NCBI GenBank assembly: GCA_038063755.1
Contig: JBBTUL010000011.1
Location: 3,946 to 67,945 of the forward strand
Length of the DNA: 64,000 nt
Reading direction: 5' to 3'
From: Patescibacteria group bacterium
Lineage (GTDB): Bacteria > Patescibacteriota > Minisyncoccia > UBA6257 > 2-01-FULL-56-20
The position numbers and the translations under genes were made by a program. Positions 10,641-53,139 of this stretch are shown here, piece by piece (position 1 is the first letter of the stretch; each line of letters begins with the position of its first letter). Under the pieces are notes generated by a model. That model was not told the origin of the DNA, made no database searches, and saw only the letters and a program-made list of their open reading frames with translations.

Positions 10641-13388
10641 GTGAACGTCAAAGCTAAAAAAGCGCTTTCGGAGCCGAATTTTAAGGACTCTGAGTTTGCA
10701 AGTTTCGCGAATAAACTAATCGAACGCGGGATTCTTGAGAAACCCGTTTCGGAGTTCGTTCGTGAATTGAACAAAGAGTCTTTCGGTGGTGATTCTCCGT
10801 GGCGGAGGATCAAGGTTGCCGATCTTACGAAGTCGGTGCTCGATTCTATTATTTGGACGAAGGATCGTCTTGATTTATTGAAGGATCACGTTCGACTTGG
10901 AGTCGAACTTGGTCCGGTCTATAAGATTCTTGCATATATCCCGAAGAAGATGGTTGATGCAAAGGCATCCGATCTTCGGGGAAAGAGCCGCAAGACTATT
11001 TTTCCTGAGCTGTCCGAGCCGGGCGTGGGGAGACTCGCAACCGACGAGGAAATCAAAAAGGGGCACATTGTCCCACTCAAGACATACACGCTAAAGAAGC
11101 CGTACGTTGTTTCGATTCCTGACCCTGAGAAATTCAGAGTGCTTTTCGTGAACGCGCCTCATCTTGGACTCGAATACAATCGAGTTCTTGCGGAGAACTT
11201 TTTGCGAAACGCGCTCGTTCGAGCGGAGAAGAAAAAGTTCGATGCAGTGGTTTTAACGGGTGCTCTTATGTGGCTCGATGCGAGTCGAGCGCATGGACAC
11301 CTTACCACTCACCGGGCGCTTTACTCCGGACTGGATTTTGATCCAGACGCGCTTGACCCTGGATACGGGGAAAAGGCAAAAAAAGTTCGCAAAGAAAAGA
11401 ATCCGAACGTTGTTACCTTCTCGACGCTTAGAGAGCGAGTGAAGATGGCGATGGGTGGATACAGGAAGGTTTTTCTTCTCGACGAGCGGAATCCTGTTTT
11501 CTCGGGTAAGGTCTACGTTTGCTTCGGAAAGCAGGAAGAAGAAATGATCGAGGCCGCGGCCCACGATCACATTCGATACGTCGTAGATAGGATGCGAGGA
11601 AGTGTCGATACCGAAAAGAAGGCCCTCGAGGCCGAGCTTAGATTCAAGTTGAGCGATGGGTCGAGTGGCGGTAAAGGGATTGACGAACTTCGTGAACGTA
11701 TCGACGAGCTCCGTCGTGAGGAGCAGAGAATGATTCAAACGAACGTTGATGTCATTGATAGGCGACGATTCGTTGACATCATTCGGACCCTCCTGATTTC
11801 CTGGTATAAGGAGGTAATTCCAAACTGTGAATTTGTTGCGCAAGGATCGACGGTTTTCTCGATCGGTGGAAAAACGATCCAAATCCTTCAAGAGGGCGAT
11901 GATTCGCTTTCCCGCGCGAAAATCGATAATGCCATGAAGGGGAGTTCGGGAAGAGCCCTTGGCGGGCGACTCTCGGACTTTGTTCTTGCTGCTGGACCGT
12001 ACAGTGTCGACGCTCGCGAGGGAATCATTGAGCGGGTTTCCGGGAAGAACCGTGAAACGACGCGTGTCTGGACGCTTCCTGTGGCAATCGACGTTGATTA
12101 TTTGCGGAATGCTCGACCGGAGCTTGTCCGGCGCGCTTCACCGCTCGAGAGATTGTTGGGAGATGCGGGCTTTAGTCCGGGAGTTTTCGAGCTTGGTTTT
12201 GTAAATGGTATTTGGGATTGCAGCGTTATCTCTCCAAGGACTTTCGGACACAAGGCACCGAAGGTGGTGGGTAGCACCCCATATATCTATCTCATTGCTG
12301 ATGGAGACTATCATTATGGTGCTCCTGCGAAAGACTGGATTTTTGATCCGGTAACCAGGTCCTATCTTCCTATTGAAGTTGCGGCATCGGAACTTTTCAT
12401 GAGAGAGTTCGTTGCCAAAGGAAAGGACCTTCCATTTTCTGGGTGGCATTGCGGAGGCGACTTCCTCCACGGGAAGCACTTCCCAACGCACCAGGCGAGA
12501 AATCCTGGAACGTTACCCTACGCGACCATCGCGAAAAGATTGAGCGAGGCCAGGAAGGATTCCGGCAAGGTTCAAGAGGTTTTGAATCTTATCGATAGTC
12601 AACTTCAGAAGAGGGGAGAGGTGTGGATGAACTCTCAGCTCGAAGAAGCGATCAGGATATCGATTCTTCCGAGAATTCCCTTCTTTGCTGCGGTTCTGAA
12701 GCACGCGAAGGATGCAGGAGTTCGGATGCGAGGGACCGCGGAGGTTTATACTGGGTCTTCTGATCTTGCGTCGATAGATATGGGATGTCTTAACGTTTTG
12801 GGCGGCAATCACGCGGAAAAGACGACTTTCGGAGAGTTTCTCGAAAGTCCTGTGATTGCGTGGATGATTCGCCTTGCTCTTGTCCCGAGCGGGTTTAGCC
12901 TCGAAGAGCTGGAACGGCTCGTTCGGGCGCCGCTTTTCGGACCGGAGAACATTGGATATGGTCTGCTCTCTGTGCCGGATGGGTACGAGTGGGCGATTCA
13001 TATTCGCCACGATCCTCCAGTCAAAGGTCCGCAGAACGGATGGACCTTGAGGGGAGTCGCGGAGAAATATCGCGAACGCGGTGACTATCCAAGGATTTTC
13101 ACTGGGCGGCACATGATCGCAATGAGTTCGGATATTCACCGAGCTGGAGCAAGTTTCGGACCTGATATCCATGTTGTTTCTGTGCCGGCGTGCACTGATG
13201 GCGATGCCTACGGTGAGCGTTTTGGCATGAGTCGGAACAACATCGGGTTTACCGTGGTCGGACTTCCGGTTCATGGACCGCTGGCTGGTCCTGTCCGGGT
13301 AATTCAGTTCACTCACGATATTTTGAGGAAGTATTTTGCGAATCCTTGGTCGATCGACTGGGACACCTTGTTCCGGGGAGCGATCTAG
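10641..13388 (+). CDS. Large hypothetical protein (915 aa); C-terminal half with ordered calcineurin-like metallophosphoesterase-like motifs
   Basis: GTG start 7 nt after AAGGAG. No recognisable family overall. Motifs in order: DGDYHYG (~12300), GGDFLHG (~12455), GGNHAE (~12801), HIRHD. An N-terminal weaker echo is present (FVNAPHLG ... FDAVVLTGALMWLD). Confidence 0.7.
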   Translation: MNVKAKKALSEPNFKDSEFASFANKLIERGILEKPVSEFVRELNKESFGGDSPWRRIKVADLTKSVLDSIIWTKDRLDLLKDHVRLGVELGPVYKILAYIPKKMVDAKASDLRGKSRKTIFPELSEPGVGRLATDEEIKKGHIVPLKTYTLKKPYVVSIPDPEKFRVLFVNAPHLGLEYNRVLAENFLRNALVRAEKKKFDAVVLTGALMWLDASRAHGHLTTHRALYSGLDFDPDALDPGYGEKAKKVRKEKNPNVVTFSTLRERVKMAMGGYRKVFLLDERNPVFSGKVYVCFGKQEEEMIEAAAHDHIRYVVDRMRGSVDTEKKALEAELRFKLSDGSSGGKGIDELRERIDELRREEQRMIQTNVDVIDRRRFVDIIRTLLISWYKEVIPNCEFVAQGSTVFSIGGKTIQILQEGDDSLSRAKIDNAMKGSSGRALGGRLSDFVLAAGPYSVDAREGIIERVSGKNRETTRVWTLPVAIDVDYLRNARPELVRRASPLERLLGDAGFSPGVFELGFVNGIWDCSVISPRTFGHKAPKVVGSTPYIYLIADGDYHYGAPAKDWIFDPVTRSYLPIEVAASELFMREFVAKGKDLPFSGWHCGGDFLHGKHFPTHQARNPGTLPYATIAKRLSEARKDSGKVQEVLNLIDSQLQKRGEVWMNSQLEEAIRISILPRIPFFAAVLKHAKDAGVRMRGTAEVYTGSSDLASIDMGCLNVLGGNHAEKTTFGEFLESPVIAWMIRLALVPSGFSLEELERLVRAPLFGPENIGYGLLSVPDGYEWAIHIRHDPPVKGPQNGWTLRGVAEKYRERGDYPRIFTGRHMIAMSSDIHRAGASFGPDIHVVSVPACTDGDAYGERFGMSRNNIGFTVVGLPVHGPLAGPVRVIQFTHDILRKYFANPWSIDWDTLFRGAI

Positions 13389-13491
13389 GTCGCAGATATT
13401 CGTACAGCCGAGATTTTCTCGGCTGTTTTTTATTGACAAAAAAAGCGATTCAGCTTTAAGCTGTGGTCAGCAATCTCCTTTCGGAGGGGAC

Positions 13492-14628
13492 ATGAAAATT
13501 TGCGGCAGAGATATCGGTATTCAAGGGGTCATCACGATATTCCTGATCTTCCTCGGCACGGTCTCACTGGTTGTATCGAGTACGCCGACCGAGATCCTGA
13601 TCCTGATGCTCTTGGCCTACGCCTCGAATGCGAGCTATTCGATGGTGAGCCGGTCTGCGGTGAGAACAAGCGTGCTTTACCACGCGCTTACCGTCTTCTT
13701 AAACAACACCTTGTTCTATTTGGTGTTGCACCGGCTTGTCCAGAACGATCTGAGCATTGTGCTCTTCATTCCGTATACCGTAGCCACGGTTTTCGGGAGT
13801 CAGAATGGCTCTCTCGCTTCGATGAGGATAGAGGAGAGGTTTGGCATCAAGGCGAACCCGGACAAGAAGGCGAAGCCTACGCCCCAGTCAGTCCTCGCTC
13901 AGAAGCTGTTGCTTGGTTTCGTGGGAGTGTTGGGTATCGTTGCGGCGGTTTTTACGCGCGACTTGAAGACCGCAGCGTTCGTCGCATTCCTCGCCCTCGC
14001 GGACAACCTTACCTTCTCGGTTTTGCGGCGCTCCAGGAATACCAACAACGTTGCATATCACATCATTGCATCGATCGCGAAAGGTACGGTGTGGTATTTG
14101 CTGTTCCGAGAACTCTCGCTTTCAAAAATGGCGCTCGGATTCTTTCCGCAGTACTGTTTCGGGTCCGTGCTTGGCGGGCTGATCGGTCAAGACGTGTCGT
14201 TGCGGATTGAGCGGTTGATAGGTGCATCCGCGGACGACCACCTAAAGTCCAAAGCGAAGCACTTCATGCCGACCGTTTCCCTCGCCATCCTTTCCCTTGG
14301 GGTGGTCGCGATCTCGTTTTTTGCGAACGAACCGAGCTTTGCCGTCTACCTTGCCTTGCTCTCCGGAGCCCAACAGGTGTCTTTCACCATCGTGAGTCGC
14401 TCCCGAAACCGAGGCCACATGGGCTACCACATGCTTGCTTCGATCTTGAGCAATGGGGTGTGGTTCTTGACGTTTCGCCAGGCGAACCTGGAACATTGGT
14501 CCCCAGACCTCTATCTACCATTTGCCCTCGGCGGAACTGCCGGAAGCATTAGCGGAGCCGGGATTTCGATGCAGATCGAACGCAAGCTTGGTATTTCCTC
14601 TGACGCGCATCTTGCGAAGCCTGCATAG
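13492..14628 (+). CDS. Integral membrane protein built from three ~115-aa internal repeats
   Basis: Each repeat has two TM helices, a (S/T)xVSRS(A/R)...Y(H)...L motif, then RIEERFGI / RIERLIGAS / QIERKLGIS. The ORF opens at 13336, but the likely start is ATG 13492 (MKICGRD). Confidence 0.65.
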   Translation: MKICGRDIGIQGVITIFLIFLGTVSLVVSSTPTEILILMLLAYASNASYSMVSRSAVRTSVLYHALTVFLNNTLFYLVLHRLVQNDLSIVLFIPYTVATVFGSQNGSLASMRIEERFGIKANPDKKAKPTPQSVLAQKLLLGFVGVLGIVAAVFTRDLKTAAFVAFLALADNLTFSVLRRSRNTNNVAYHIIASIAKGTVWYLLFRELSLSKMALGFFPQYCFGSVLGGLIGQDVSLRIERLIGASADDHLKSKAKHFMPTVSLAILSLGVVAISFFANEPSFAVYLALLSGAQQVSFTIVSRSRNRGHMGYHMLASILSNGVWFLTFRQANLEHWSPDLYLPFALGGTAGSISGAGISMQIERKLGISSDAHLAKPA

Positions 14629-14634
14629 TGATAC

Positions 14635-14660
14635 AACCCGACTTGCGTCGGGTTTTTTGT
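14635..14660 (+). terminator. Rho-independent terminator (AACCCGAC-ttgc-GTCGGGTT + T6)
   Basis: Perfect stem followed by TTTTTTG, just past the membrane-protein stop. Confidence 0.65.
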
Positions 14661-14727
14661 TTGGGACTTGCATTGCGGCAGGCGAGATGTTTAAGTCTTT
14701 ATAGTTGCGATTTAAAAGGAGGATTTT

Positions 14728-15560: not shown

Positions 15561-18254
15561 ATGGAAGCGGATCTTTCAAAGGTTCCGAAGAGATTGGTTG
15601 TTATGAACTGGAGTAACCCAGGAGGCAGTCCGAAGGTCTGCTTTCCTGGAGTACGGGCAGTACTTCCGTTCCCAGATTTGAGCGGTGCCCCGAGTATTGA
15701 AAAAGGGGTTGCCAAAATGAAAGAAGACGGGGCTTTTCTCGTCCAGTATCAGAAAGAAGACGTATCGTTTCCGGTTTCTCTCATTGTTCTCATCAAAGAA
15801 GCGAAGAACGTGGAAAAAGACGGAAGAAAAATCACGTTGATCATCGGAGAATTTACTCGAAGAGTTCTGTTGTCATCTCATTGCGATGAGGAGTTCGGAA
15901 GCAGTTATGAGTGGACTCCTGCGGAAGAGACTTGCTTTTCCGAAGAAGAGTTTGGCAGTCAGGAGACACAGGAAATGATTCAAGGTGTCGCAAGGTTAAG
16001 CGAAGAGCTTTTGGACCTCATGCAGCAGGGGAGCCCCAGTATTTTGCCCGAAATTTGGAAGCTTTGCGAAAAAAGAGAGTCAATCGGGGAATTTCTCGAC
16101 AATATTTCTTCGCCGCTCTTGAGCGTCTGCTCGATGAGTAAGGAAGTTGCCGATGCAGCCGAGGCGCTCATCTGTGAGCTGGGACATAAAAAGCGACTTG
16201 AAATTTTGTCTTTCATATATCCCATTGCCATTGATCTTCTGAAGAAGGAGAAGGATAGCAGCGAGACCTTTGATGGGCTTGTCGCGATTCCGTTTGACGT
16301 CAATGACGGGACAGAGCTTATCATGTTCCCCGGAACTCCATTTATGACCTCGCTTGGTGTAAAGGGATCGCTTTCCGAGGAAAGACTTCTTAAAAAGATA
16401 AGAGAAGACAAAGAAATGGTCTTCTATACCCCGAAAGACGGCATGATTCCGCAGATCGGAATTTTGGTTCATGTCAGGACGTCTCGGAATAACGGACTTA
16501 GATCAATTTCCTGCCGCGCGCTTCGACGCGTTGAAATACTTGATTACCAAATAGATCAAGGGATGTTTGGCGTAAAACACGGCGACGTAGATGAAATTCA
16601 GCTTGGTGAAAAAGAATTTCTAAGTGCCGAAGTGCAGAAAAAGATTTCCGATCTCAAGGCTTTTAGCGAAAGATTTCTGAGTTTTTTCAGGGCGGATGAA
16701 TCGGGTGGAGATGTTGAAATAGACGAACGGCATATCAAGAATTCGGAAAGCGTCGAGAGTCTTGGGAAATACCTTGACGTCCTTGCGCAACAACTTGTTT
16801 TTATTTTTCCACCCATAGACTCGATAATTACATCATCGCTTCGGGAACTGATTTGCGAGCTTGATCAAAAGAAGCGGATCGAGATTCTCTTGAACGCCTA
16901 TCCGCTCGCCATAGAATTTGCGAAAAAAACGGTAAGCGGGGAAAGCTTGATCATTGCTCCTTCGCCTGATCTTCTTGCGAATCCTTCGCAGCATGCCGAA
17001 CGACGAACCGCGTTCAAGCTCGAGGATTTTGCAAATGATTCCGCAGAAGTGGAAGTTCCTCTCTCGGATAAGCCTGGTCAACGACATCGTTCTCCAGAAG
17101 TCGAGACGTTCTATCGTTTTCTTCGGAAGAACGTTATTGGCGAAGGCGGACAAAAGCGTGCGATCAAGCGCCTTACTACTAGATTTGAGGTTTATCGCTC
17201 GCTTTTCCGGAAGCACCGCAAGCCGATAGGAACATTTCTATTTTTGGGTCCCTCGGGAGTCGGCAAGACAGAGCTTGCCGAACGGGTGGCAGAATTTCTT
17301 CTTGGACAGAAAACGTCTGTCACAAAAATTGCCTGCGGTGAGTATACAGAAGGGCATCAGGTTTCGAGGCTCATCGGCTCGCCGCCCGGATACGTTGGAT
17401 CGGACGATCGGCCGCTCCTTGCTCAGGAGCGAGTTGATAGGTATGGCATTGAGGCCGAAATCAAATGGCTGCAATCTCAACTAAACGAACCGAATTTGCC
17501 ACCGGAGAAAGAGAAGGTTTTGCTCGAGAGACTGAAAATTTTCGGATCTCATCTCGGGCACAAGCAGGGTTCGCGGTCAGGGGAGAGCTCAAAAGCAATC
17601 CGTACGGCGGATCTTGCGAGGGCCTATCCGGTTCTCTCGGTTCTCCTTGTCGACGAAATTGACAAAGCGCACGAAAATCTTTTAAAGTTTTTTCTTGAGG
17701 TTTCTTCAAAGGGGGTCGCGCAGCTTTCGAACGGTGAGGAAGTTGACCTTTCGAACTCGTTCATTATCTTCACGAGCAATCATGGATCGAAAAAAATCGC
17801 ACAGATTCTTCATGGAAAGGTCACGAGAGTAGGTTTCGGAGACGGCCACCAAGAAAAGTCTGTTTACGAGGTTGCCATGGATGAACTGAGGAGAGTCCTT
17901 CCGCCGGAACTTATCGGACGGATTCAAGATGACATTGTTGTTTTTTCGGAGTTGAGCCACGAAGAGATGCGGAAGATTCGAGACCTGAGATTTTCCGAGC
18001 TCGATCTGCAAATTCGGGCGAAGATGCCCAATCTTTCGGTCGAGTTTGATGGGGCTGCAAAAGAATTCATCTTTTCGAAATCCTCCGATCACCCGGAGTA
18101 CGGGGCACGAGTCCTGGAGGCGAAGATTGATCACTATGTCATCGAACCTTTAGCAGAACAGCTGAATAATGGCGAGCTAAAGGACGGCGACAAGGTTTTG
18201 GGGGTCCTCCTTGCGGGGGACGAGGAGATGGAGATTCGTTTCAAGAAGGTGTAA
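15561..18254 (+). CDS. Atypical AAA+ protein: novel ~520-aa N-terminal region plus a single ClpA/ClpB D2-like ATPase module
   Basis: Walker A FLFLGPSGVGKTELAE, GSPPGYVGSDD, Walker B LLVDEIDKAHENLLKFFLEV, sensor IIFTSNHGS and the D2 small domain are all ClpA/B-like. A ~60-aa coiled-coil insert sits between Walker A and Walker B. The N-terminus has two LICEL(G/D)xKKR(L/I)EIL..YP(I/L)AI repeats. Confidence 0.8.
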   Translation: MEADLSKVPKRLVVMNWSNPGGSPKVCFPGVRAVLPFPDLSGAPSIEKGVAKMKEDGAFLVQYQKEDVSFPVSLIVLIKEAKNVEKDGRKITLIIGEFTRRVLLSSHCDEEFGSSYEWTPAEETCFSEEEFGSQETQEMIQGVARLSEELLDLMQQGSPSILPEIWKLCEKRESIGEFLDNISSPLLSVCSMSKEVADAAEALICELGHKKRLEILSFIYPIAIDLLKKEKDSSETFDGLVAIPFDVNDGTELIMFPGTPFMTSLGVKGSLSEERLLKKIREDKEMVFYTPKDGMIPQIGILVHVRTSRNNGLRSISCRALRRVEILDYQIDQGMFGVKHGDVDEIQLGEKEFLSAEVQKKISDLKAFSERFLSFFRADESGGDVEIDERHIKNSESVESLGKYLDVLAQQLVFIFPPIDSIITSSLRELICELDQKKRIEILLNAYPLAIEFAKKTVSGESLIIAPSPDLLANPSQHAERRTAFKLEDFANDSAEVEVPLSDKPGQRHRSPEVETFYRFLRKNVIGEGGQKRAIKRLTTRFEVYRSLFRKHRKPIGTFLFLGPSGVGKTELAERVAEFLLGQKTSVTKIACGEYTEGHQVSRLIGSPPGYVGSDDRPLLAQERVDRYGIEAEIKWLQSQLNEPNLPPEKEKVLLERLKIFGSHLGHKQGSRSGESSKAIRTADLARAYPVLSVLLVDEIDKAHENLLKFFLEVSSKGVAQLSNGEEVDLSNSFIIFTSNHGSKKIAQILHGKVTRVGFGDGHQEKSVYEVAMDELRRVLPPELIGRIQDDIVVFSELSHEEMRKIRDLRFSELDLQIRAKMPNLSVEFDGAAKEFIFSKSSDHPEYGARVLEAKIDHYVIEPLAEQLNNGELKDGDKVLGVLLAGDEEMEIRFKKV

Positions 18255-39902: not shown

Positions 39903-40872
39903 TCGCTTTCCCAAGAACGGCGAGAGCTTCACGCGCGTTTTTGGTTTCCATGAGTTGAACGCGCAATTCGCGAGCTCCAGAAAATCCCTCAACGTAGGAT
40001 TTAAAATGTTTTTTCATATTGGCGAAATTTTTTATGTCGCCCAGTAGTTTTTCAAAATAACCAATGTGTTCGGAAAGTGCCTGTATGCGTTCAGTTGGCG
40101 TCGGGGAGTACCCCGTGAAAAACCACGGGTTGCCGAATAAACCGCGCCCAATCATGACGCCATCGGCACCACTTTCTTTTGCCCTTATTTTCGCCTCTTC
40201 TATCGAGCGGACATCTCCATTTCCGATGATAAGTGTTTTGCTATTTAGTCTGTTGCGAATATCGACAGCCTTTTCGATCGCGTCCCAGTTCGCCGGAACT
40301 TTCGAAAGTTCTTTTTTCGTTCGTGCGTGAAGCGTGATTGCCGCCGGCTCTTCGGCGAGGAGTTCCGGAAGCCAGATGTCGAGTTCGTCCTCCGCATATC
40401 CAATCCTCGTCTTTACGGAAACGGGAAGTCCATTCGACACTTCTTTCGTCACGCGAATAATTTCTCTGGCAACCTTCGGGTTTTTAATGAGCGCCGCTCC
40501 CGCGCCTTGACGGCACACGCCCTTGTCGGGACAACCCATATTAATGTCGACACCGTCAAACCCGAGTTTCGCGACGAGTGCCGAGGCCCTTTTCATGAGT
40601 TCGATGTCGGAAGAAAATATCTGCGCCACGATAGGCCGCTCTTCGGAAGAAAAAAGAAAGTCTTTCGAGAGCACGTCAAAATTGCCGCGGAAAAGGCCGT
40701 CGGCAGAGACAAATTCAGTCCAAAAAACATCTGGGCCGCCCTTGCGATCATTTCGCTTGCTAAGATCGCCGTATTTCACAAACATTTTTCGAAATGCAGC
40801 ATCGGTAACGTTTGCCATGGGTGCAAGGCAGAAAAAAGGACGCGGAAGGTTGTCCCAAAATGATTTTTTCAT
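39874..40872 (-). CDS. dus: tRNA-dihydrouridine synthase
   Basis: FFCLAPMANVTD and the internal Cys motif. The ORF opens at 40920, but ATG 40872 (MKKSFWDN) is the likely start. Confidence 0.85.
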   Translation of the reverse strand: MKKSFWDNLPRPFFCLAPMANVTDAAFRKMFVKYGDLSKRNDRKGGPDVFWTEFVSADGLFRGNFDVLSKDFLFSSEERPIVAQIFSSDIELMKRASALVAKLGFDGVDINMGCPDKGVCRQGAGAALIKNPKVAREIIRVTKEVSNGLPVSVKTRIGYAEDELDIWLPELLAEEPAAITLHARTKKELSKVPANWDAIEKAVDIRNRLNSKTLIIGNGDVRSIEEAKIRAKESGADGVMIGRGLFGNPWFFTGYSPTPTERIQALSEHIGYFEKLLGDIKNFANMKKHFKSYVEGFSGARELRVQLMETKNAREALAVLGKAITQYSNEQA

Positions 40873-40916
40873 GCGAGTCCTGTGTATTGGAGCACGGGGT
40901 CGATGTCGAAGTTTAG

Positions 40917-41318
40917 TCATGTGCTGCCTTTGAGCGAGGAAAAATAGTCTTCTGCTATTTTGTTATCGTGAAATCCAAGGTCCATTTTTTCAATGGTGGA
41001 TTCATCGAAGTACTGGATCTTTTGACCTTCGTGAAGCTGGATGTGTGCCGCATCCAAGTTCATCTTTGCATAGTACATGTGCTCAATCTTTTCCGGCCAA
41101 TCATATGTTCGGAAAAATAAGATATTTGGTATCTTGAGTTCCATTTCCTCTTTCATTTCTCGCGTGATTGCTTCTTGTGGTGTTTCCCCGGCTTCAACTA
41201 CGCCTCCAGGGATGTACCATCGACTTGGATATGGGATATTCGGCTTGTTGTCTCGTAACAAAAGCAGTATTTTGTTATCATCGTTTTGGATAATGATTCC
41301 TACGGTATTCTTCTTCAT
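40917..41318 (-). CDS. NUDIX hydrolase
   Basis: Nudix box GGVVEAGETPQEAITREMKEEMEL. Confidence 0.8.
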   Translation of the reverse strand: MKKNTVGIIIQNDDNKILLLLRDNKPNIPYPSRWYIPGGVVEAGETPQEAITREMKEEMELKIPNILFFRTYDWPEKIEHMYYAKMNLDAAHIQLHEGQKIQYFDESTIEKMDLGFHDNKIAEDYFSSLKGST

Positions 41319-41475
41319 TTTAATGAAGAAAGCCTACAGGGGCGATGCGTGGCGAGGAAAAGTGTCATCGGTACGATGAAGCTTTTCCGCAATTCGGACA
41401 AGAATAAAATTTCGGAGAAATCGGTTGGTGGCAGAGGGGACAGGTGGGGCTTGTCGGCTCTGGTGGTTCCATTAT

Positions 41476-41898
41476 TTAAAAAGCGATGTTGGGGTGCGCC
41501 GCGATGAGCTTTTGCAGTGAGTCCTCGTCTCCAAGCATGCGGAGCACTTCGGCGAATAATCGCTGATCGACCATCTGGCTGTGGTGATATTTTTCCCCGG
41601 CGGGATTCGTGTCGCCTCGCAGTACCCCATAGAGGGCTACCCTCGGATCAAGAGAACCGCTTGAGCTATAGAGGGCAATCCCCGAGACTTTTGCTATAAC
41701 CTCCGCTTCTGCAAAGTGCGGACGATCGAGGGTCGTAGTCTTCTCGGCTCTATCAAGCGCGCTTTGATAGTCTTTTTCGTTGATAATTCCTCCCAAGCTC
41801 TTATATTTCTCGTAGTCGCCCTTCGGTGCATATTGGACGCCCTCCCTCTTCACCCCTTCCTCATCGGGAATTTTTTCTTCGAAAGATCGTTCGTTCAT
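41476..41898 (-). CDS. Hypothetical protein
   Basis: ORF with no recognisable motifs. The ORF opens at 41934; ATG 41898 (MNERSFEEK) is the likely start. Confidence 0.4.
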   Translation of the reverse strand: MNERSFEEKIPDEEGVKREGVQYAPKGDYEKYKSLGGIINEKDYQSALDRAEKTTTLDRPHFAEAEVIAKVSGIALYSSSGSLDPRVALYGVLRGDTNPAGEKYHHSQMVDQRLFAEVLRMLGDEDSLQKLIAAHPNIAF

Positions 41899-41951
41899 GA
41901 TTTGCACTGTAGTCCCCGATGACGGGAAAAGCAAGGCACAAAGGATAGTCT

Positions 41952-42596
41952 TTAGTCGACCTCAGGACGCAAACCGACAAAATCAAAGGTATCTTTGTCG
42001 AACGAAAACTTGGTGAGCGTTCCGGTTTCAACCGAAAACTCCTCGTGCCGATCTCTGCCTGCTTTTCCGAGTATCGGCAAGACGGCCCTGAGGCATCCCT
42101 TGTGCGTGACGATGAGAATATTTTCTCCCGCATCGTTTTCATCCGCTATTTCCTCAAGGGCAGAGAATAGCCTGCGTTCCATCTGTTCCCACGATTCGCC
42201 GCCTTCGGGAATAAAACCGAACCGCCCATCGATGCTCATATTCTCGAGATTCTTTGCAACCTCGAACCACTTCATATCTTTCCATGCTCCCCAGTTGCGC
42301 TCCCGCAAACCGTCTCTTGCTTTGATCGGCAGATTCAAAGCATCCGCAATCACCTCGGCGGTTTGATACGATCGACCAAGCGGGGAGGAATAGATATCTG
42401 TCACGCGAACACCGTTTTTCTTAAAGTAGCTGGCAACCGATACGGCCTCCCGCCTGCCCCGTTCGGTAAGCGGTGCATCATTCATGACGGTGGCTTGATC
42501 GACGAAGACATTGTCCTCGCTTTGCCCGTGCCGGATAAACCAAAAGGATATCTTGGTTGATCTCTTGGAAATCTTTTGTTTTAGGCGTTCGGACAT
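41952..42596 (-). CDS. Histidine phosphatase (phosphoglycerate-mutase-like) family protein
   Basis: RHGQS catalytic motif near the N-terminus. C-terminal LIVTHKGCLRAV motif. Confidence 0.75.
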   Translation of the reverse strand: MSERLKQKISKRSTKISFWFIRHGQSEDNVFVDQATVMNDAPLTERGRREAVSVASYFKKNGVRVTDIYSSPLGRSYQTAEVIADALNLPIKARDGLRERNWGAWKDMKWFEVAKNLENMSIDGRFGFIPEGGESWEQMERRLFSALEEIADENDAGENILIVTHKGCLRAVLPILGKAGRDRHEEFSVETGTLTKFSFDKDTFDFVGLRPEVD

Positions 42597-42773
42597 GTTT
42601 CCTTGTGATGCCTAAGTATAAATCTTGAAAGGAAGAACCTCAAACCTACTTTTTACGAAGCTTGATCGGACTTTCCACTAGGCACCTTGAAAAAATATAT
42701 CGAAAAACGTAATGTTCTGTTAATGCGTTCGATGACTTTTTCCCGAAAACGCGGGGAGCAGTGCGTTTAAAAA

Positions 42774-43592
42774 ATGAAAAAGGCAAGCAAGATAATAACG
42801 CTTAAAAAACTGGGGAAGGTAGTGGAGCCCCGAAAAGTCACTTTGATCAGCGGATCTTTTGACCCATTTAACTCTTACTACCGCAAACTTCTTACGTGGG
42901 CATCGCTCCAGTCAAGACCCTTGGTTGTTGTCGTGCACACCGACAGGGCAGTAAGCATCAGGAGAGGTCTTTCAAGACCAACAGAAAACCAAAAAAAAAG
43001 AGCAGAAAATGTTGCCGGTTTGGATTTTGTCGATTACGTGGTTATTTCAAGTAAGGGTGCCCATGATAAAAAAATCGTAAAGTTGCTCAAGCCCAGGCTT
43101 CTGTTGTTCCAGCAAGACAACACAAGCTTTCTTGCGGGGCTGTTTAGCATAATCAATCGTAAGTTCCCAGGTATCGGAATCCGTGTATCTCCCATAAAAA
43201 AAGAAATCGTTATTTCCACTGTTCCTTCCAAAATTACTCCTAATAATATAAAGAACCCGATCCTGAAAAGGGTATTGGAACTGGCAAGGACATCAACCGC
43301 TCCGGTCGGGAGAGTCTCCGCCGTTTTGGTTTCAAAGAGCAAGGTGCTAGCCGAATCATCTAATCTTGCGGGGGGCGAGCATGCCGAGAAAGTAATTTTA
43401 GATAGATTGTTGGGTAAAAACATGGAAGGATGTTCTTTATACGTTCTCATTCCTCCTTGTCCCATGTGTGCCGACAGCATCATCCGCGCCAAGCTGAAAA
43501 ATGTTTATTACTTATTCAACTACGGAGATAAAATGGGTGTTGAGCGTTTGCATGAGGCGGGTATCGTTGTCAGGAAAATTAAATTGGTATAA
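42774..43592 (+). CDS. Fusion protein: PPAT/cytidylyltransferase-like domain (HxGH degenerated to NSYY) + TadA/CDA-like zinc deaminase
   Basis: N-terminal LISGSFDPFNSYY resembles the (T/G)xFDxxHxGH nucleotidyltransferase fold but lacks both His. C-terminal GGEHAEKV...PCPMCA is the H(A/C)E...PCxxC deaminase zinc site with TadA-like context. Confidence 0.7.
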   Translation: MKKASKIITLKKLGKVVEPRKVTLISGSFDPFNSYYRKLLTWASLQSRPLVVVVHTDRAVSIRRGLSRPTENQKKRAENVAGLDFVDYVVISSKGAHDKKIVKLLKPRLLLFQQDNTSFLAGLFSIINRKFPGIGIRVSPIKKEIVISTVPSKITPNNIKNPILKRVLELARTSTAPVGRVSAVLVSKSKVLAESSNLAGGEHAEKVILDRLLGKNMEGCSLYVLIPPCPMCADSIIRAKLKNVYYLFNYGDKMGVERLHEAGIVVRKIKLV

Positions 43593-43601
43593 CTTGATTG
43601 T

Positions 43602-44429
43602 ATGGAAAAGCTAGATTCCAATATCCCCATCATCCGGCACCTGGAAGACCAGGAAAACATCTTGAAGTTCGGACGCGACGGAGATTTGGTTCCGGGACAA
43701 GAAGAAGCGGCAAGGCGGATCGGAGAAAAAATCCTTGAAGACGCAAAACGAGAGAAAAAAGGAGCGATTATGTTGGTTTGCTCAAACAAAAAAAGGAGCA
43801 CTCAAACGGCGCATTTGGTTGTTGGAGAAATAAAGAAAATCGAAAGCAGTATTAAAACAAGAATCGTTCAAGAAGACCGTTTAGCTCCCATTGATGAAGG
43901 AGGGTTCGTTTTACCGGCCGATTACCGGGAAGGAGAAACATTCGAGGGACTTCCTCTCGCAAACAAGGCTTTCAACAAGGAGGCGTTCGATGAAGCAAAC
44001 GACCTATACAGATTCGGTGACCCCGTTTTACGGAACGACGGAACGTACAAATACCCAGAGTTGGTACCATATTTTAAGAGCTATGGGGAGAGCAACAGAG
44101 ATTTGATGATTAGGATTTATGAGCTCATTATCGAAACGACCCAAAAAATAGACAAATTTGATTCTAGAACAAAAGTTTTTGTTGTAACCCACTCCCAGCT
44201 CTATCAGATTTTTAGAAACTTGATGGTGGTTGCAAAGATGATCAAAACCGAAGGACTTAAGTTTGAGACCGGAGAGGTTCCGAGATTATGCTGGAACGTG
44301 TATCAGAGTAGGACCAAGCAAGAAAAGCCAACCTATGAGGCAAACCTTGTACCGATCGACGACTTGCGCGATCCTGAGATCATAGAATTGCTGAAGAAAG
44401 AAATCGAATATTTAAAAAACCTTACCTAA
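43602..44429 (+). CDS. Divergent histidine-phosphatase-like protein
   Basis: PIIRHLE (RHxE) near the N-terminus and VFVVTHSQL second-His motif. Weak assignment. Confidence 0.45.
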   Translation: MEKLDSNIPIIRHLEDQENILKFGRDGDLVPGQEEAARRIGEKILEDAKREKKGAIMLVCSNKKRSTQTAHLVVGEIKKIESSIKTRIVQEDRLAPIDEGGFVLPADYREGETFEGLPLANKAFNKEAFDEANDLYRFGDPVLRNDGTYKYPELVPYFKSYGESNRDLMIRIYELIIETTQKIDKFDSRTKVFVVTHSQLYQIFRNLMVVAKMIKTEGLKFETGEVPRLCWNVYQSRTKQEKPTYEANLVPIDDLRDPEIIELLKKEIEYLKNLT

Positions 44430-44433
44430 ACCC

Positions 44434-44928
44434 ATGAGCGACGAAAAAGAGCAAAAAATGAACACCAAGTATGTGGGACATCATATTTCTTCTGGGGGTT
44501 TTATCTTCCACGAAGACAAAGACACTGGTCTTCTGTCGGTGCTGCTTATCAAGAACAAAAAGGGAGAGTACTGGATACCAAAAGGCCACATTGAGGAGGG
44601 CGAGGATCAGATAGCTGCGGCATTTAGAGAAATTGAGGAAGAGGTCGGTCTCACGAAAGATCAGTTAACATACATCGGCCTTTGTCATCTGCACAAATTT
44701 TCTTTCGTCGACGACGGCGGGAACCCGAATACCAAGGATGTTTATATGAATCTTTTTGGGGTCCACGAAAAGCATGATCTGAAAAAAGAGGAGGGGGCGA
44801 CGGATCTCACGGATGCGGGATGGTTCGAGTTCTCAAGGGCCCTGGAAATGATCATCCCTTACAGCAAGAACGAGTTGATCAAGGCCAAGGAAATGTTCGA
44901 AAATTATTTACGAAGTTCAAGCTCATGA
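44434..44928 (+). CDS. NUDIX hydrolase
   Basis: Nudix box GHIEEGEDQIAAAFREIEEEVGL. Confidence 0.8.
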   Translation: MSDEKEQKMNTKYVGHHISSGGFIFHEDKDTGLLSVLLIKNKKGEYWIPKGHIEEGEDQIAAAFREIEEEVGLTKDQLTYIGLCHLHKFSFVDDGGNPNTKDVYMNLFGVHEKHDLKKEEGATDLTDAGWFEFSRALEMIIPYSKNELIKAKEMFENYLRSSSS

Positions 44929-45632
44929 GCAGAGGCTTCGAAGAGGTGAAAAGGAGTCTTCCGAATCAACCTTTCGCAGAGGACCTGGTTTGTTTCATTG
45001 TGTTCGGATCAAGCGTGGTAAACGCCAACATGGAGAAGGCTCCCGATGATGTGGATGTTTGCGTCGTTGCGAGCAACCGCAGGGCGGATCTGCGCCAGAT
45101 TTCGGAGTTTATATTTGATAGTTTCGAAAAGCCAGACTTCAGAATATATTTTCAAGATGAAATAGACAGCGATCTGCAATTTATGGATGTCGGGATTGGT
45201 GTTTTTGCGATGGAATACTTTGCGAATGGCATTACCTTGTTCGGAGAAAATATTTTTATTAAGAAACTGCCTCAAATCAGCAAACTGAAGTTGAAGGAAA
45301 GCTATTTGAATAAAATCTTCGAGTATATTATACGAATCCGGGTGGCCTACATTGCAAAGACTTCAACATATGAGTATAAAATGTGGCACATCTATAAGTA
45401 TGTGATACGTCTCTTGATAGACATTCTGTTATACAACGACTATATCGTTTACGGCGATCTGAAAAAAATGACAAAAATGGAGATTATCGACCTGTGCAAA
45501 AACAAGGGAATTATACGGAAAGATGTGGAAATCGATTTTACCAACCTAGAAAAAATGTATAAATTGTTTGAGGAAGTGAACTTGTATGTCGTAAATGCCC
45601 ATACCCGCCCCCGAAACGAAGGCTTACTCTAG
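44925..45632 (+). CDS. Pol-beta-superfamily nucleotidyltransferase (ANT/Lnu-like architecture)
   Basis: FGSSVVNANMEKAPDDVDVCVV is the hG[GS]...D.D NTase signature, followed by a helical C-terminal domain. ATGA overlap with the upstream NUDIX stop. Strongly AT-rich. Confidence 0.6.
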   Translation: MSRGFEEVKRSLPNQPFAEDLVCFIVFGSSVVNANMEKAPDDVDVCVVASNRRADLRQISEFIFDSFEKPDFRIYFQDEIDSDLQFMDVGIGVFAMEYFANGITLFGENIFIKKLPQISKLKLKESYLNKIFEYIIRIRVAYIAKTSTYEYKMWHIYKYVIRLLIDILLYNDYIVYGDLKKMTKMEIIDLCKNKGIIRKDVEIDFTNLEKMYKLFEEVNLYVVNAHTRPRNEGLL

Positions 45633-45677
45633 CGTTTCCTTCTGGATCGGTATGCCGACAGATGATATACTGAAATC

Positions 45678-46820
45678 ATGAGGAAAATCATAATATTTGG
45701 AGTTTTGGCGGGGTTCCTGCCGGTCATGGCACTCGCCGCGTATGTGGGAGCAGGGGAGAGTGTCATGGTTCCTCCGCCGCTTGGCGGGGCAGAGCCTGTA
45801 GTTCAGAACGCTTATCTTGTGGGCGGAACGGTTAACGTCGCGAATCCCGTTCGGGGAGATGTGGTGACTGCCGGAGGTACGATTGTTGTCTCCGGAAAAG
45901 TGGAGCAGGATATTTTTGCTTTCGGTGGCAATATAAGCATGCTCGGCATTTCTGCCGAAGACATCCGCACTGCCGGTGGTAACATCACTATTGGCGGAAA
46001 GGTGAGCGGCGAAATTCTTGTGGCGGGAGGACAGATTATGATAACGCCGGACACGACCATTGCCCGAGATTCATACATTGCGGGAGGCACGCTCGTTTTT
46101 TCAGGAACTGAAAATGGCAATCTTACCGCGGTTGGTGGTAATATCCGTATTGACGGTGTGGTCAATGGCAATCTCTTGATCAAGCAAGCGGACAAAGTTA
46201 CTTTCGGACCGCAATCGGTTGTGAAGGGTACTATCGAATATTTTGCGCCTGCGGAGGCGACGATTCTCGATGGGGCTCAACTTGCAACCGCGCCGGTGTT
46301 CCATGAGATAGAAAAAAATCGCGCTGCTGGTGCGCGCCCGCGGCTCTTCGCCGCATTCTTTGGGATCGCGATCTTTTTGAAGGCGCTCGCTCTTCTCGGT
46401 GCCGCGTATCTTCTGTGGTATTTACGCCGTCGCGACATGACAACCGCGATCGAGCAGGTTTACGGGCATTTTTGGAGCGTACTGTTCCGAGGGTTTTCAG
46501 TGCTTGTCCTCATTCCGGCTGCAAGTATCATTCTCTTATTTACTGTCATTGGATGGATTCCTGCGGCGGCAATGCTCGCCGTCTACGCCGCACTCCTTGT
46601 TCTTGCGGCTCCGGTTGCCACGATAATCGCGACCTCGTTTCTCATGACGCTTCTAAAGAAGAGCCGTACGGATCTTGCCTGGTATCACATTCTTGGAGGA
46701 CTTGTCGTCGTGAAGCTTGTCGTGGTTGTTCCGGTGGTGGGTTGGCTTATCTGCCTTGTGATCTACCTAGTGTCTCTCGGCGCGGTGGCGGGCATTGTGA
46801 AAACAAAGTTTTCGGCATAA
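45678..46820 (+). CDS. Secreted/membrane protein with bactofilin-like beta-helical G-rich repeats and C-terminal multi-TM domain
   Basis: Signal peptide, then ~10 repeats of (V/I)xGx(V/I)xxAGGx(V/I). Then 4 TM helices. Confidence 0.55.
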   Translation: MRKIIIFGVLAGFLPVMALAAYVGAGESVMVPPPLGGAEPVVQNAYLVGGTVNVANPVRGDVVTAGGTIVVSGKVEQDIFAFGGNISMLGISAEDIRTAGGNITIGGKVSGEILVAGGQIMITPDTTIARDSYIAGGTLVFSGTENGNLTAVGGNIRIDGVVNGNLLIKQADKVTFGPQSVVKGTIEYFAPAEATILDGAQLATAPVFHEIEKNRAAGARPRLFAAFFGIAIFLKALALLGAAYLLWYLRRRDMTTAIEQVYGHFWSVLFRGFSVLVLIPAASIILLFTVIGWIPAAAMLAVYAALLVLAAPVATIIATSFLMTLLKKSRTDLAWYHILGGLVVVKLVVVVPVVGWLICLVIYLVSLGAVAGIVKTKFSA

Positions 46821-46851
46821 AAGTAAAATCTTCGATATGAAGGTGTAAGCT

Positions 46852-47274
46852 ATGGAAAAGATCATAAAAGAAAAATATAAAATAGCAGTTATCGAAGATG
46901 AAGAGATTTTATCCGAATCAATTTCAGGAGAACTCGAAGATGATGGCTTTCTTGTCGTCAAGGCGTTTGATGGAGAGAGCGGGCTCGAGCTCGTACGTAA
47001 GGAAAAGCCCGACCTCATTCTGCTTGATATCATCATGTCGAAACAAGACGGATTTTATGTCCTAGGAGCAGTGAGAACAAATCCGGAATGGAAACCAGTC
47101 CCCATCATTGTGCTCTCAAATTTGGGCGGCGATGCGGAGATCAAGAGGGCGCTTGCGATGGGAGCGGATGATTATTTTGTAAAATCCCAACATCCCATCG
47201 AGATGGTGGTCGAGAAGGTTAAAGAATACCTTGAGGGAGGAAAGTCGATCAACCCCCCGAAGATTGGAACATAA
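46852..47274 (+). CDS. Single-domain response regulator (CheY-like receiver)
   Basis: IAVIEDEE, phospho-acceptor DLILLDIIM, and T/K positions conserved. 140 aa, no output domain. Confidence 0.85.
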   Translation: MEKIIKEKYKIAVIEDEEILSESISGELEDDGFLVVKAFDGESGLELVRKEKPDLILLDIIMSKQDGFYVLGAVRTNPEWKPVPIIVLSNLGGDAEIKRALAMGADDYFVKSQHPIEMVVEKVKEYLEGGKSINPPKIGT

Positions 47275-47600: not shown

Positions 47601-47637
47601 CACCTCGCGAGGACACCTCATATAACTATTCACGATT

Positions 47638-49293: not shown

Positions 49294-49316
49294 CAACTGC
49301 TCTGTGTCTCTATTGT

Positions 49317-50408: not shown

Positions 50409-50412
50409 TCAG

Positions 50413-52591: not shown

Positions 52592-52671
52592 TATATGGGC
52601 CACACCGCATATATTCTCATCCGCTCGAAAATATTTTAGCAAGCTAAATATTTTTCTCACTCATTTCGATT

Positions 52672-53127: not shown

Positions 53128-53139
53128 ATAACACCCAAC

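What the first reader, a model, noticed from the sequence alone, without database searches (positions are those of the whole stretch)
13492..14628. Membrane protein composed of three tandem ~115-aa repeats
Reading the translation shows three consecutive units, each with two hydrophobic helices. Each carries the motif S(Y/F)(S/T)xVSRS(A/R)...(Y)H and ends with an amphipathic RIE(E)R(F/L/K)GI...H/D...KxK segment. The three endings are RIEERFGIKANPDKKAKP, RIERLIGASADDHLKSKAKH and QIERKLGISSDAHLAKPA. A triplicated fold suggests a pseudo-threefold channel or transporter assembled from one chain. I cannot place the repeat in a known family.
Basis: seen in the sequence. Interest (0 to 1): 0.55.

Follow-up and report, generated by a model that had tools for sequence, protein, structure and literature searches.

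The report
Three small membrane proteins fused
This gene of an uncultivated groundwater bacterium encodes a 12-helix membrane protein made by fusing three copies of a small three-helix membrane protein otherwise found mostly in phages; the family is undescribed and repeatedly sits next to enzymes that cut or repair nucleic-acid ends.

Summary
Window 13492-14628 (+) encodes a 378-aa protein with three tandem repeats (pairwise E 3e-15 to 1e-24). Each repeat has four helices, not two.

- **Architecture.** A 100-residue model of free-standing three-helix proteins matches residues 33-125, 161-254 and 285-376. One poorly conserved extra helix precedes each copy and restores topology, giving (1+3)x3 with both termini inside.
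- **Family shape.** Only one-copy and three-copy forms look genuine, which points to a trimeric ancestor.
- **Known families.** There is no Pfam, NCBIfam, PADLOC or PDB match, and no Foldseek match for a confident model (pLDDT 88). The only hits are PHROG 33664 (function unknown) and a sub-threshold resemblance to TauE/TSUP.
- **Distribution.** Three-copy forms are confined to Patescibacteria. They always lie beside a ~915-1110-aa soluble protein whose model weakly resembles Mre11-type metallophosphoesterases.
- **Phage context.** One-copy forms sit in phage DNA-replication modules. They are directly adjacent to metallophosphoesterase "repair exonucleases" more often than chance (13 loci against 4 expected). 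In some phages they are fused to, or overlap, a polynucleotide-kinase-like domain.

My best reading is a single-chain trimeric membrane subunit that works with nucleic-acid end-processing enzymes. The architecture is solid; the function is inferred.

The parts
13492..14628 (+). Coding sequence of the 378-aa, 12-helix membrane protein (three fused units)
   Evidence: Translation. 51 homologues of 213-409 aa, nearly all about 320-409 aa. AlphaFold2 pLDDT 88, pTM 0.87.
13483..13489 (+). Shine-Dalgarno-like GGAGGGG just upstream of the ATG
   Evidence: Read directly from the sequence.
13519..13575 (+). Linker helix 1 (residues 10-28), outside the repeat core
   Evidence: Helix in the model. Not covered by the one-unit HMM. 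No column conserved at 90% or more.
13588..13866 (+). Core unit 1 (residues 33-125): three helices plus a C-terminal amphipathic segment
   Evidence: One-unit HMM match, E 1.1e-29.
13882..13956 (+). Linker helix 2 (residues 131-155)
13972..14253 (+). Core unit 2 (residues 161-254)
   Evidence: One-unit HMM match, E 4.2e-32.
14272..14316 (+). Linker helix 3 (residues 261-275)
14344..14619 (+). Core unit 3 (residues 285-376), the unit closest to free-standing one-unit proteins
   Evidence: One-unit HMM match, E 6.1e-37. Smallest distance to single units.
10641..13388 (+). Conserved neighbour: 915-aa soluble protein of unknown family, possibly with a metallophosphoesterase fold
   Evidence: Homologues are adjacent to the three-unit gene in every Patescibacteria locus with enough flank. 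Foldseek top hits are Mre11, purple acid phosphatase and LpxH, but only at E about 1e-2. No Pfam hit.
13404..13433 (+). Terminator-like hairpin plus T-run between the partner gene and the membrane-protein gene
14635..14662 (+). Terminator-like hairpin plus T-run just after the stop codon

Best explanation
**Shown.**
- The protein is a covalent fusion of three copies of a roughly 100-aa, three-helix membrane protomer.
- By the positive-inside rule the protomer has its N-terminus outside and its C-terminus inside.
- Each copy is preceded by one poorly conserved linker helix. That helix returns the chain to the outer face, so all three copies insert in parallel: (1+3)x3, 12 helices, both termini cytoplasmic.
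- All three copies keep the family's conserved residues: the Arg-rich S-R-x-R-N loop, Y-H, a Pro, a G-x3-G-x3-S face and a Glu at the inner end of the last helix.

**Inferred.**
- The free protomer works as a homotrimer, and the fused chain is a pseudo-trimer.
- It is the membrane-embedded subunit of a two-part module. The soluble part is a phosphoester- or nucleic-acid-end-processing enzyme: a large Mre11-like metallophosphoesterase-type protein in Patescibacteria, and metallophosphoesterase "repair exonucleases" or a polynucleotide-kinase-like domain in phages.
- The conserved cytoplasmic face (Arg loop, Tyr-His, Glu, and the Asp/His of the C-terminal amphipathic segment) docks or cooperates with that enzyme at the inner face of the membrane.
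- Whether the helices also conduct a substrate, a product or an ion is open.
For: **Repeats and architecture.**
- Repeat significance.
- The one-unit HMM matches residues 33-125, 161-254 and 285-376.
- 12 helices, pTM 0.87.
- Linker helices have 0 of 59 columns conserved at 90% or more, against 77 of 279 in the cores.
- Positive charges lie on the even-numbered loops.

**Trimer inference.**
- HMMER over 1.84 billion representatives finds 464 relatives.
- Among the retrieved proteins there are 85 with three units and 90 with one.
- Of the 12 two-unit proteins I read, about half are visibly truncated three-unit gene calls and I saw no clear genuine two-unit form; three of the 15 were not read.
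- (1+3)-helix monomers exist, for example L075 and L079.

**Partner in Patescibacteria.**
- A homologous large protein is adjacent in the window and in L003, L005 and L006.
- It is adjacent in 10 of 10 three-unit genome loci with flank, and in the two one-unit loci L075 and L079, in co-directional, convergent and divergent arrangements.
- It lies on the same contigs in at least 10 further cases, judged from matching contig lengths, plus one pair of adjacent locus tags.
- Its model's best Foldseek hits are almost all metallophosphoesterases, with Mre11 at probability 0.63-0.90.

**Phages.**
- 61 viral loci were retrieved.
- Neighbours are DNA polymerase, ribonucleotide reductase, MazG and exonucleases.
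- A metallophosphoesterase-like gene is directly adjacent in 13 of 29 dereplicated loci that have one, against 4.0 expected, P about 4e-5.
- Cellulophaga phage phi18:3 gp100 (metallophosphoesterase) lies directly upstream of gp101 (unit).
- A polynucleotide-kinase-like domain is fused in frame to the unit's cytoplasmic C-terminus in L049 and L052. It is the overlapping or abutting next ORF in L045, L056 and L062.
- A DNA ligase lies directly downstream in Tenacibaculum phage Larrie.
Against: - No physical interaction is shown.
- The metallophosphoesterase status of the Patescibacteria partner is weak. Foldseek E is about 1e-2 on a pLDDT-69 model. There is no Pfam Metallophos hit even at E 10. 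hhalign against the phage metallophosphoesterase clusters is not significant.
- The phage association could partly reflect simple residence in the replication module.
- About three quarters of the dereplicated phage loci (38 of 51) have no metallophosphoesterase directly adjacent.
- Conserved mid-membrane polar residues (Q/N, S-N, W, T, G-S) and the 12-helix total suggest an intrinsic transport function that a mere anchor would not need.
- I could not read model coordinates, so threefold geometry is inferred rather than seen.
Confidence: 0.45

Rival explanations
1. It is an autonomous small-solute transporter or channel built from three 4-helix repeats, perhaps a very distant relative of the 4-helix-repeat TauE/SafE (TSUP) anion transporters. 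The neighbouring enzymes are only metabolically related (for example nucleoside, nucleotide, phosphate or Mn2+ traffic) or incidental.
For: - 39 of 103 one-unit proteins give sub-threshold Pfam TauE hits, always to the same region (profile positions 171-219), with best E 6e-4.
- JGI labels several members 'YfcA'.
- The one-unit HMM aligns its last two helices to helices 3-4 of E. coli YfcA, but at only 1.8 bits.
- Mid-membrane polar residues and a glycine face are conserved.
- The 12-helix architecture is typical of transporters.
- Phage neighbours include nucleotide-metabolism genes.
Against: - TauE scores of 13-18 bits are far below the 32.6-bit cut-off.
- hhalign against YfcA gives probability 0.15.
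- Foldseek finds no transporter fold (best E 0.17, TM at most 0.21).
- TSUP proteins have two repeats, not three.
- This reading does not explain the in-frame fusion to a kinase domain, or the invariant adjacency to the large soluble protein across rearranged Patescibacteria loci.
Confidence: 0.3
2. It is a membrane-embedded enzyme acting on a lipid- or polyprenyl-phosphate substrate. Three composite active sites would lie at the cytoplasmic interfaces of a trimer, as in the small trimeric membrane enzymes DgkA and the MAPEG family. The adjacent kinase or phosphoesterase would act in the same pathway.
For: - Invariant Arg, Asn, Tyr-His and Glu residues, and a nearly invariant Asp, cluster at the cytoplasmic membrane boundary in every unit.
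- Conservation is unusually high for a phage small membrane protein (52% mean column identity).
- A trimer is inferred.
Against: - There is no sequence or fold similarity to DgkA, MAPEG, PAP2 or any solved enzyme.
- The neighbours are annotated as nucleic-acid enzymes, not lipid enzymes.
- The comparison with DgkA and MAPEG comes from general knowledge only.
Confidence: 0.1
3. It is a holin-like or superinfection-exclusion membrane protein. The free protomer has the class I holin topology (three helices, N-out, C-in, charged C-terminus), and the bacterial version is a domesticated copy.
For: - Size of about 100 aa, three helices and a charged C-terminal tail.
- Mostly phage-borne.
Against: - The gene lies in replication and nucleotide-metabolism modules, not beside any gene identified as a lysin among the neighbour clusters I annotated.
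- Its strongly conserved polar motifs are unlike holins.
- Patescibacteria keep it as a conserved chromosomal gene among housekeeping genes, paired with a large soluble protein.
- No PHROG holin family matches.
Confidence: 0.07

Closest known systems
PHROG family phrog_33664 (118-aa phage proteins, function unknown)
   Same: It matches the repeat units at E 2e-13 to 2e-15. Cellulophaga phage phi18:3 gp101 (118 aa) belongs to the same unit family.
   Different: The PHROG describes single-unit phage proteins with no function assigned. The window protein is a three-unit fusion in a bacterial chromosome.
SemiSWEET to SWEET evolution (three-helix bundle protomers fused through an inversion linker helix, 3-1-3)
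   Same: The construction logic is the same. A three-helix protomer that works as an oligomer is fused into one chain, with one extra helix per junction so that the copies stay parallel (PMC6783836 for SWEETs; here).
   Different: There are three copies rather than two, plus an extra N-terminal helix. There is no MtN3/PQ-loop Pfam match. No fold match to solved SemiSWEET or SWEET chains appears in the Foldseek list.
Mitochondrial carrier family (three tandem ~100-aa repeats, pseudo-threefold single chain)
   Same: Three tandem repeats of about 100-125 aa in one membrane chain, each ending in an amphipathic segment on the inner face.
   Different: Carriers have 2 helices per repeat and the P-x-[DE]-x-x-[KR] signature. 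Here there are 4 helices per repeat, no such motif and no Mito_carr hit.
TauE/SafE (TSUP, Pfam PF01925; E. coli YfcA)
   Same: A 4-helix repeat unit. There is a weak, recurrent similarity of the last two helices of the unit to the last two helices of a TSUP repeat.
   Different: All scores are below the curated threshold, hhalign is negative, and there are three repeats instead of two.
Small homotrimeric membrane enzymes (DgkA, MAPEG)
   Same: Small protomers with three or four helices, an inferred trimer, and conserved charged residues at the cytoplasmic boundary.
   Different: No sequence or structural similarity was detected. The resemblance comes from general knowledge only.
Polynucleotide kinase-phosphatase end-healing enzymes (T4 PseT; Clostridium thermocellum Pnkp = P-loop kinase + metallophosphoesterase + ligase)
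   Same: The partners that travel with the unit are of these enzyme classes. They include a PseT-like kinase domain (tblastn to 201 phage pseT records; PDB 4JST at E 0.015 and 1LY1 at E 0.15), metallophosphoesterases and a ligase.
   Different: Known Pnkp and PseT enzymes are soluble and have no membrane subunit. The Patescibacteria partner shows no P-loop motif on reading its sequence and no match to Pnkp chains in the PDB sequence searches.

Membership tests
phrog_33664 (phage protein family, unknown function) | Significant match to the PHROG profile | tested here: met
   E 2.3e-13 for the window protein with two matched stretches; E 1.6e-15 for P0021 with three.
TauE/SafE (TSUP), Pfam PF01925 | Score at or above the Pfam gathering threshold (32.6 bits) | tested here: not met
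   The window protein gives no hit at E up to 10. One-unit relatives score 13-18 bits.
TauE/SafE (TSUP), Pfam PF01925 | Remote homology of the 4-helix repeat | tested here: inconclusive
   39 of 103 relatives hit the same profile region weakly. hhalign against E. coli YfcA gives probability 0.15. hmmsearch gives 1.8 bits. I could not build a diverse TSUP profile.
TauE/SafE (TSUP), Pfam PF01925 | Two 4-helix repeats per chain (8 helices) | tested here: not met
   Three repeats and 12 helices.
SWEET / SemiSWEET (MtN3_slv, PQ-loop) | Pfam MtN3_slv or PQ-loop match; PQ motif in helix 1 | tested here: not met
   No such hit at E up to 10 for the window protein or for 103 relatives.
SWEET / SemiSWEET (MtN3_slv, PQ-loop) | Three-helix protomers joined by a linker helix that preserves parallel topology | tested here: met
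   The HMM covers three helices per unit, and one extra unconserved helix precedes each unit. This is an analogy of design, not membership.
Mitochondrial carrier family | Three repeats of two helices with P-x-[DE]-x-x-[KR]; Pfam Mito_carr | tested here: not met
   Four helices per repeat, no Pfam hit, and no motif in the sequence.
   No hit at E up to 10.
Class I holins | About 100 aa, three helices, N-out and C-in, charged C-terminus | tested here: met
   The one-unit relatives have this layout by hydropathy and charge. Topology is predicted, not measured.
Class I holins | Gene in a lysis cassette next to an endolysin | tested here: not met
   Neighbours are replication, recombination and nucleotide-metabolism genes. 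Only the ten largest neighbour clusters were annotated.
Known anti-phage defence proteins (PADLOC) | Match to any PADLOC model | tested here: not met
   No hit for the 378-aa protein, its 915-aa neighbour or a one-unit relative.
Homotrimeric small membrane proteins (DgkA, MAPEG) | Trimeric assembly with interfacial sites | not testable with these tools
   No multimer prediction and no access to coordinates. There is no sequence or fold similarity.

The most novel reading that the evidence does not exclude
The three-helix protomer defines a previously unrecognised trimeric membrane fold. It would be the membrane half of a machine shared by phages and Patescibacteria, coupling the cytoplasmic membrane to nucleic-acid end processing by an Mre11-like phosphoesterase, a polynucleotide kinase and a ligase. 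Possible roles are handling DNA or RNA ends at the point of entry or uptake, or salvaging nucleic acids in organisms that cannot make nucleotides. The Patescibacteria version would be a single-chain, asymmetrically diverged trimer.
Probability: 0.25. Interest if true: 0.85.

Novelty: new variant of a known kind. Interest (0 to 1): 0.62.

Why it matters
- **Evolution of membrane proteins.** It is a clean natural example of an oligomeric membrane protein turned into one chain by adding linker helices. Free (3 and 1+3 helix) and fused (12 helix) forms are both available, and the three fused copies have diverged unequally. Threefold cases of this kind are rare.
- **An undescribed family.** It has no Pfam or NCBIfam entry and no solved structural relative.
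- **Two conserved genes of unknown function in Patescibacteria.** The pair is tightly linked in a group with minimal genomes that depend on scavenging.
- **A link to phage biology.** The repeated link to phosphoesterases and a polynucleotide kinase suggests that some nucleic-acid end processing is organised at the membrane, which is not part of the current picture of these enzymes.
- **A tractable system.** Cellulophaga phage phi18:3 gp100 and gp101 offer a cultured system to test it.

Tried and rejected
- **Self-BLAST of the whole protein** reported only the identity hit. The repeats became visible once the protein was split into units.
- **Family libraries.** Pfam, NCBIfam and PADLOC gave nothing for the protein or its 915-aa neighbour.
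- **PDB sequence and profile searches** with A1, A2, A3, A4 and single sequences gave nothing meaningful.
- **Foldseek of the 12-helix model** against PDB and BFVD gave no match at E of 1e-3 or better.
- **TauE/TSUP.** hhalign against E. coli YfcA was negative.
- **Homology between the Patescibacteria partner and the phage metallophosphoesterase clusters**, and an internal repeat in the partner, were both not significant.
- **Partner homologues in phage loci** were not found.
- **"Tandem paralogues of the unit" in L045, L056 and L062** were rejected. The clustering joined them only through the L049 fusion protein, and the second ORF is a kinase-like domain.
- **"Two-unit" proteins** were rejected as a real class on present evidence. 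About half of those I read are visibly truncated three-unit gene calls and none is a clear genuine case.
- **Domain search of long or extended relatives** gave no informative Pfam domain. P0304 is a spurious repetitive sequence.
- **A literature search for the SRSRNR motif** returned only unrelated papers.
Full report

Yes. Window 13492-14628 (+) is an ORF of 378 codons. It has a Shine-Dalgarno-like GGAGGGG at 13483-13489 and terminator-like hairpins on both sides, at 13404-13426 and 14635-14654.

I cut the protein into residues 1-128, 129-255 and 256-378.
- The three parts align pairwise at 28-35% identity over 110-118 residues.
- BLASTP E-values are 2.9e-15, 9.4e-16 and 1.0e-24.
- Smith-Waterman scores lie 18-35 standard deviations above 500 shuffles.

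One detail was wrong. Each unit has four long helices, not two. AlphaFold2 on an alignment of 42 homologues gives 12 long helices with mean pLDDT 88 and pTM 0.87.

**2. Anatomy**

A search with a profile of the repeat unit found many free-standing proteins of about 90-110 aa. A 100-position HMM built from 103 of them matches the window protein three times:

| Match | Residues | E-value |
|---|---|---|
| 1 | 33-125 | 1e-29 |
| 2 | 161-254 | 4e-32 |
| 3 | 285-376 | 6e-37 |

- Each match covers three helices plus the amphipathic I-E-x-x-x-G segment.
- The helices left over (10-28, 131-155, 261-275) precede each match.
- Those leftover helices have no column conserved at 90% or more (0 of 59), against 77 of 279 in the cores.
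- Lys and Arg cluster on the even-numbered loops. This predicts that a free protomer is N-out and C-in, and that the fused chain has both termini inside.

The architecture is therefore (1+3)x3. A three-helix protomer cannot be concatenated in parallel without one extra helix per junction, and that is exactly what is present. Eukaryotic SWEETs (3-1-3) are thought to have arisen from SemiSWEETs by the same logic (PMC6783836).

All three units keep the conserved residues: S-R and a further Arg in the first loop, Y-H, a Pro, G-x3-G-x3-S and a Glu.

**3. The family**

*Full-length relatives.*
- The first search gave 51, all but two of 320-409 aa.
- Those with names come from Patescibacteria: Paceibacterota, Azambacteria.

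*Family size.* HMMER with the one-unit profile over 1.84 billion cluster representatives finds 464 relatives at E of 1e-3 or better.

*Architectures.* Among the retrieved sequences, 85 have three units, 90 have one and 15 have two.
- I read 12 of the two-unit proteins. About half are visibly truncated three-unit gene calls that start or end inside a unit.
- None of the rest is a clear genuine two-unit form. Three were not read.
- No real protein has four or more units.

One and three are thus the only well-supported architectures, which is what a homotrimeric ancestor predicts.

*Monomer precursors.* Some one-unit proteins already carry the extra N-terminal helix (P0059, L075, L079).

*Timing of the triplication.*
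- In a distance tree, units 1, 2 and 3 of the main family each form a pure clade of 38 of 42. The triplication therefore predates the family's spread.
- Unit 3 stays closest to the free protomers.
- About 35 other three-unit representatives do not map 1-2-3 onto this family, often mapping as 3,1,x. Circular permutation or an independent triplication could explain this. I did not resolve it.

**4. Comparison with known families**

- Pfam, NCBIfam and PADLOC give nothing.
- Profile searches of all PDB sequences give nothing.
- Foldseek of the confident model finds no match at E of 1e-3 or better. The PDB best is E 0.17 with TM at most 0.21. BFVD is likewise empty.
- The only positive hit is phrog_33664, a 118-aa phage family of unknown function (E 2e-13).

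One weak lead exists, to TauE/SafE (TSUP).
- 39 of 103 one-unit proteins give sub-threshold Pfam TauE hits of 13-18 bits against a cut-off of 32.6.
- These hits always fall on profile positions 171-219.
- JGI labels some members "YfcA".
- hhalign against E. coli YfcA is negative.
- A direct HMM comparison gives 1.8 bits.
- I could not assemble a diverse TSUP profile.

Remote kinship with the TSUP four-helix repeat therefore remains possible but unshown. Mitochondrial carriers, SWEETs, GtrA and SMR fail their defining tests (see the membership table).

**5. Genomic context in Patescibacteria**

The window is a Patescibacteria chromosome. Its neighbours include BipA, Sua5, S2, S16, EF-P and MnmA, and NCBI names the source "Patescibacteria group bacterium".

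Directly upstream lies a 915-aa soluble protein with no family assignment (10641-13388).
- Homologues of it (27-45% identity) are adjacent to the three-unit gene in L003, L005 and L006, in different orientations.
- They are adjacent in all ten three-unit loci with enough flank among GTDB species representatives.
- They are also adjacent to one-unit genes in two further Patescibacteria genomes, L075 and L079. The pairing is therefore older than the fusion.
- Matching contig lengths, plus one pair of adjacent locus tags, show at least ten further co-occurrences.

On the partner's nature:
- Invariant D556, H558, D607, H613, H724, H790 and H833 read like metallophosphoesterase motifs (my reading).
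- A moderate model (pLDDT 69) has Foldseek top hits that are nearly all of that fold. These include Mre11 (probability 0.63-0.90), purple acid phosphatases, LpxH, VPS29 and the DNA polymerase alpha B subunit. E-values are only about 1e-2.
- Pfam sees nothing even at E 10.
- Profile comparison with phage metallophosphoesterases is not significant.

I rate this assignment as plausible, not established.

**6. Genomic context in phages**

One-unit genes occur in cultured phages: Tenacibaculum phage Larrie, and Cellulophaga phages phi18:3 and phi13:2. They also occur in 61 IMG/VR loci.

They lie among DNA polymerase, ribonucleotide reductase, MazG-type pyrophosphatase, 5'-3' exonuclease, PD-(D/E)XK nuclease, RecA and ligase genes. 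None of the neighbours I could annotate is a lysis gene.

*Metallophosphoesterases.*
- Three unrelated neighbour clusters are metallophosphoesterases that PHROGs names "DNA repair exonuclease" or "exonuclease" (phrog_704, 284, 7339).
- After dereplication to 51 loci, 29 contain such a gene.
- In 13 of those it is the immediate neighbour, against 4.0 expected from random placement within the locus (P about 4e-5).
- In phi18:3 the pair is gp100 (metallophosphoesterase cluster 1, E 1e-88) and gp101.

*Polynucleotide kinase.*
- In L049 and L052 the unit is fused in frame, at its predicted cytoplasmic C-terminus, to a P-loop domain.
- In L045, L056 and L062 that domain is the overlapping or abutting next ORF.
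- It matches T4-type polynucleotide kinase PseT in 201 phage records (best E 3e-7).
- Its best PDB hits are the kinase domains of Clostridium thermocellum Pnkp (E 0.015) and T4 PNK (E 0.15).

*Other observations.* In Larrie a DNA ligase follows the unit directly. Many one-unit proteins carry other variable soluble C-terminal tails.

**7. What it most likely does**

*Shown.* It is a single-chain triple of a three-helix protomer with linker helices. It is conserved in Patescibacteria and tightly linked to a large soluble protein.

*Inferred.*
- The free protomer is a trimer.
- The membrane protein is the membrane subunit of a module whose soluble part processes phosphoester or nucleic-acid ends.
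- The conserved cytoplasmic face (Arg loop, Tyr-His, Glu, and the Asp/His of the C-terminal amphipathic segment) is the docking or co-catalytic surface.

The in-frame kinase fusion, the non-random adjacency to metallophosphoesterases and the invariant pairing in Patescibacteria support this reading. It stays at about 0.45 for three reasons:
- No interaction is shown.
- The partner's fold assignment is weak.
- The conserved mid-membrane polar residues would also suit a transporter.

| Rival explanation | Confidence |
|---|---|
| Autonomous, possibly TSUP-like, transporter | 0.30 |
| Trimeric membrane enzyme acting on a lipid phosphate | 0.10 |
| Holin or exclusion protein | 0.07 |

**8. Novelty and verdict**

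The design principle of fusing protomers with linker helices is known, which is why I rate this a new variant of a known kind. The family itself is undescribed and has no solved structural relative. The threefold (1+3)x3 layout is unusual. The link to nucleic-acid end-processing enzymes in both phages and Patescibacteria is unexpected. Interest is 0.62.

Main limits:
- I had no access to model coordinates.
- I had no multimer prediction.
- I had no AlphaFold DB or HHpred search.

Noticed in passing
window 10641-13388 (+): A 915-aa soluble protein with no Pfam, NCBIfam, PADLOC or PDB-sequence match. It is conserved next to the three-unit gene across Patescibacteria. Its invariant Asp and His pattern, and its Foldseek hits (Mre11, purple acid phosphatase, LpxH at E about 1e-2), suggest a metallophosphoesterase fold with large insertions.
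   Followed up: partly
window 15561-18254 (+): An 897-aa protein with a ClpB-like AAA_2 domain plus D2-small C-terminal part, and a roughly 500-aa N-terminal region with no domain hit. It matches the PADLOC candidate model PDC-M37B (E 1e-35) and DolB. It is adjacent only in close relatives (L001, L002), not in more distant loci.
   Followed up: no
L049 5947-6855 and L052 (fusion); L045 6347-6841, L056 6392-6898, L062 6431-6952 (separate ORFs): A polynucleotide-kinase (PseT)-like P-loop domain is fused in frame to the C-terminus of the one-unit membrane protein in two viral contigs. In three others it is encoded by the overlapping or abutting next ORF.
   Followed up: yes
L012 (Cellulophaga phage phi18:3) 3477-4970 and 4983-5339: A cultured phage carries the pair. 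gp100 is annotated as an exonuclease and belongs to phage metallophosphoesterase cluster 1. It lies directly upstream of gp101, a 118-aa member of the unit family. This gives a tractable experimental system.
   Followed up: yes
Proteins P0048, P0173, P0178-P0181, P0186, P0189, P0217, P0222, P0225, P0236, P0250 and others: A second set of three-unit proteins (about 380-460 aa) has units that do not correspond 1-2-3 to those of the window family. Often their first unit resembles the window's third. This could be circular permutation or an independent triplication.
   Followed up: partly
L075 4833-5360 and L079 4312-4899 (Patescibacteria genomes): These are one-unit proteins with an extra N-terminal helix (1+3 helices). 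Each sits next to a homologue of the large partner (1112 aa in L075). They are likely living relatives of the pre-fusion state.
   Followed up: partly
window 58001-64000: G+C rises to 0.54-0.56, against about 0.47 elsewhere. The region holds a 1707-aa ORF (58193-63316, +).
   Followed up: no
window about 40000-58000: GC skew falls from consistently positive to about zero or negative. Cumulative skew peaks near 48-52 kb. Gene orientation, almost all on the + strand up to about 38 kb, becomes mixed. This may be a replication-related switch point.
   Followed up: no
window 13500-14210 (+) and 12513-13439 (-): Long alternative-frame or antisense ORFs (236 aa and 308 aa) overlap the membrane-protein gene and its neighbour. 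They have low-complexity, Arg-rich translations and are probably not genes.
   Followed up: no
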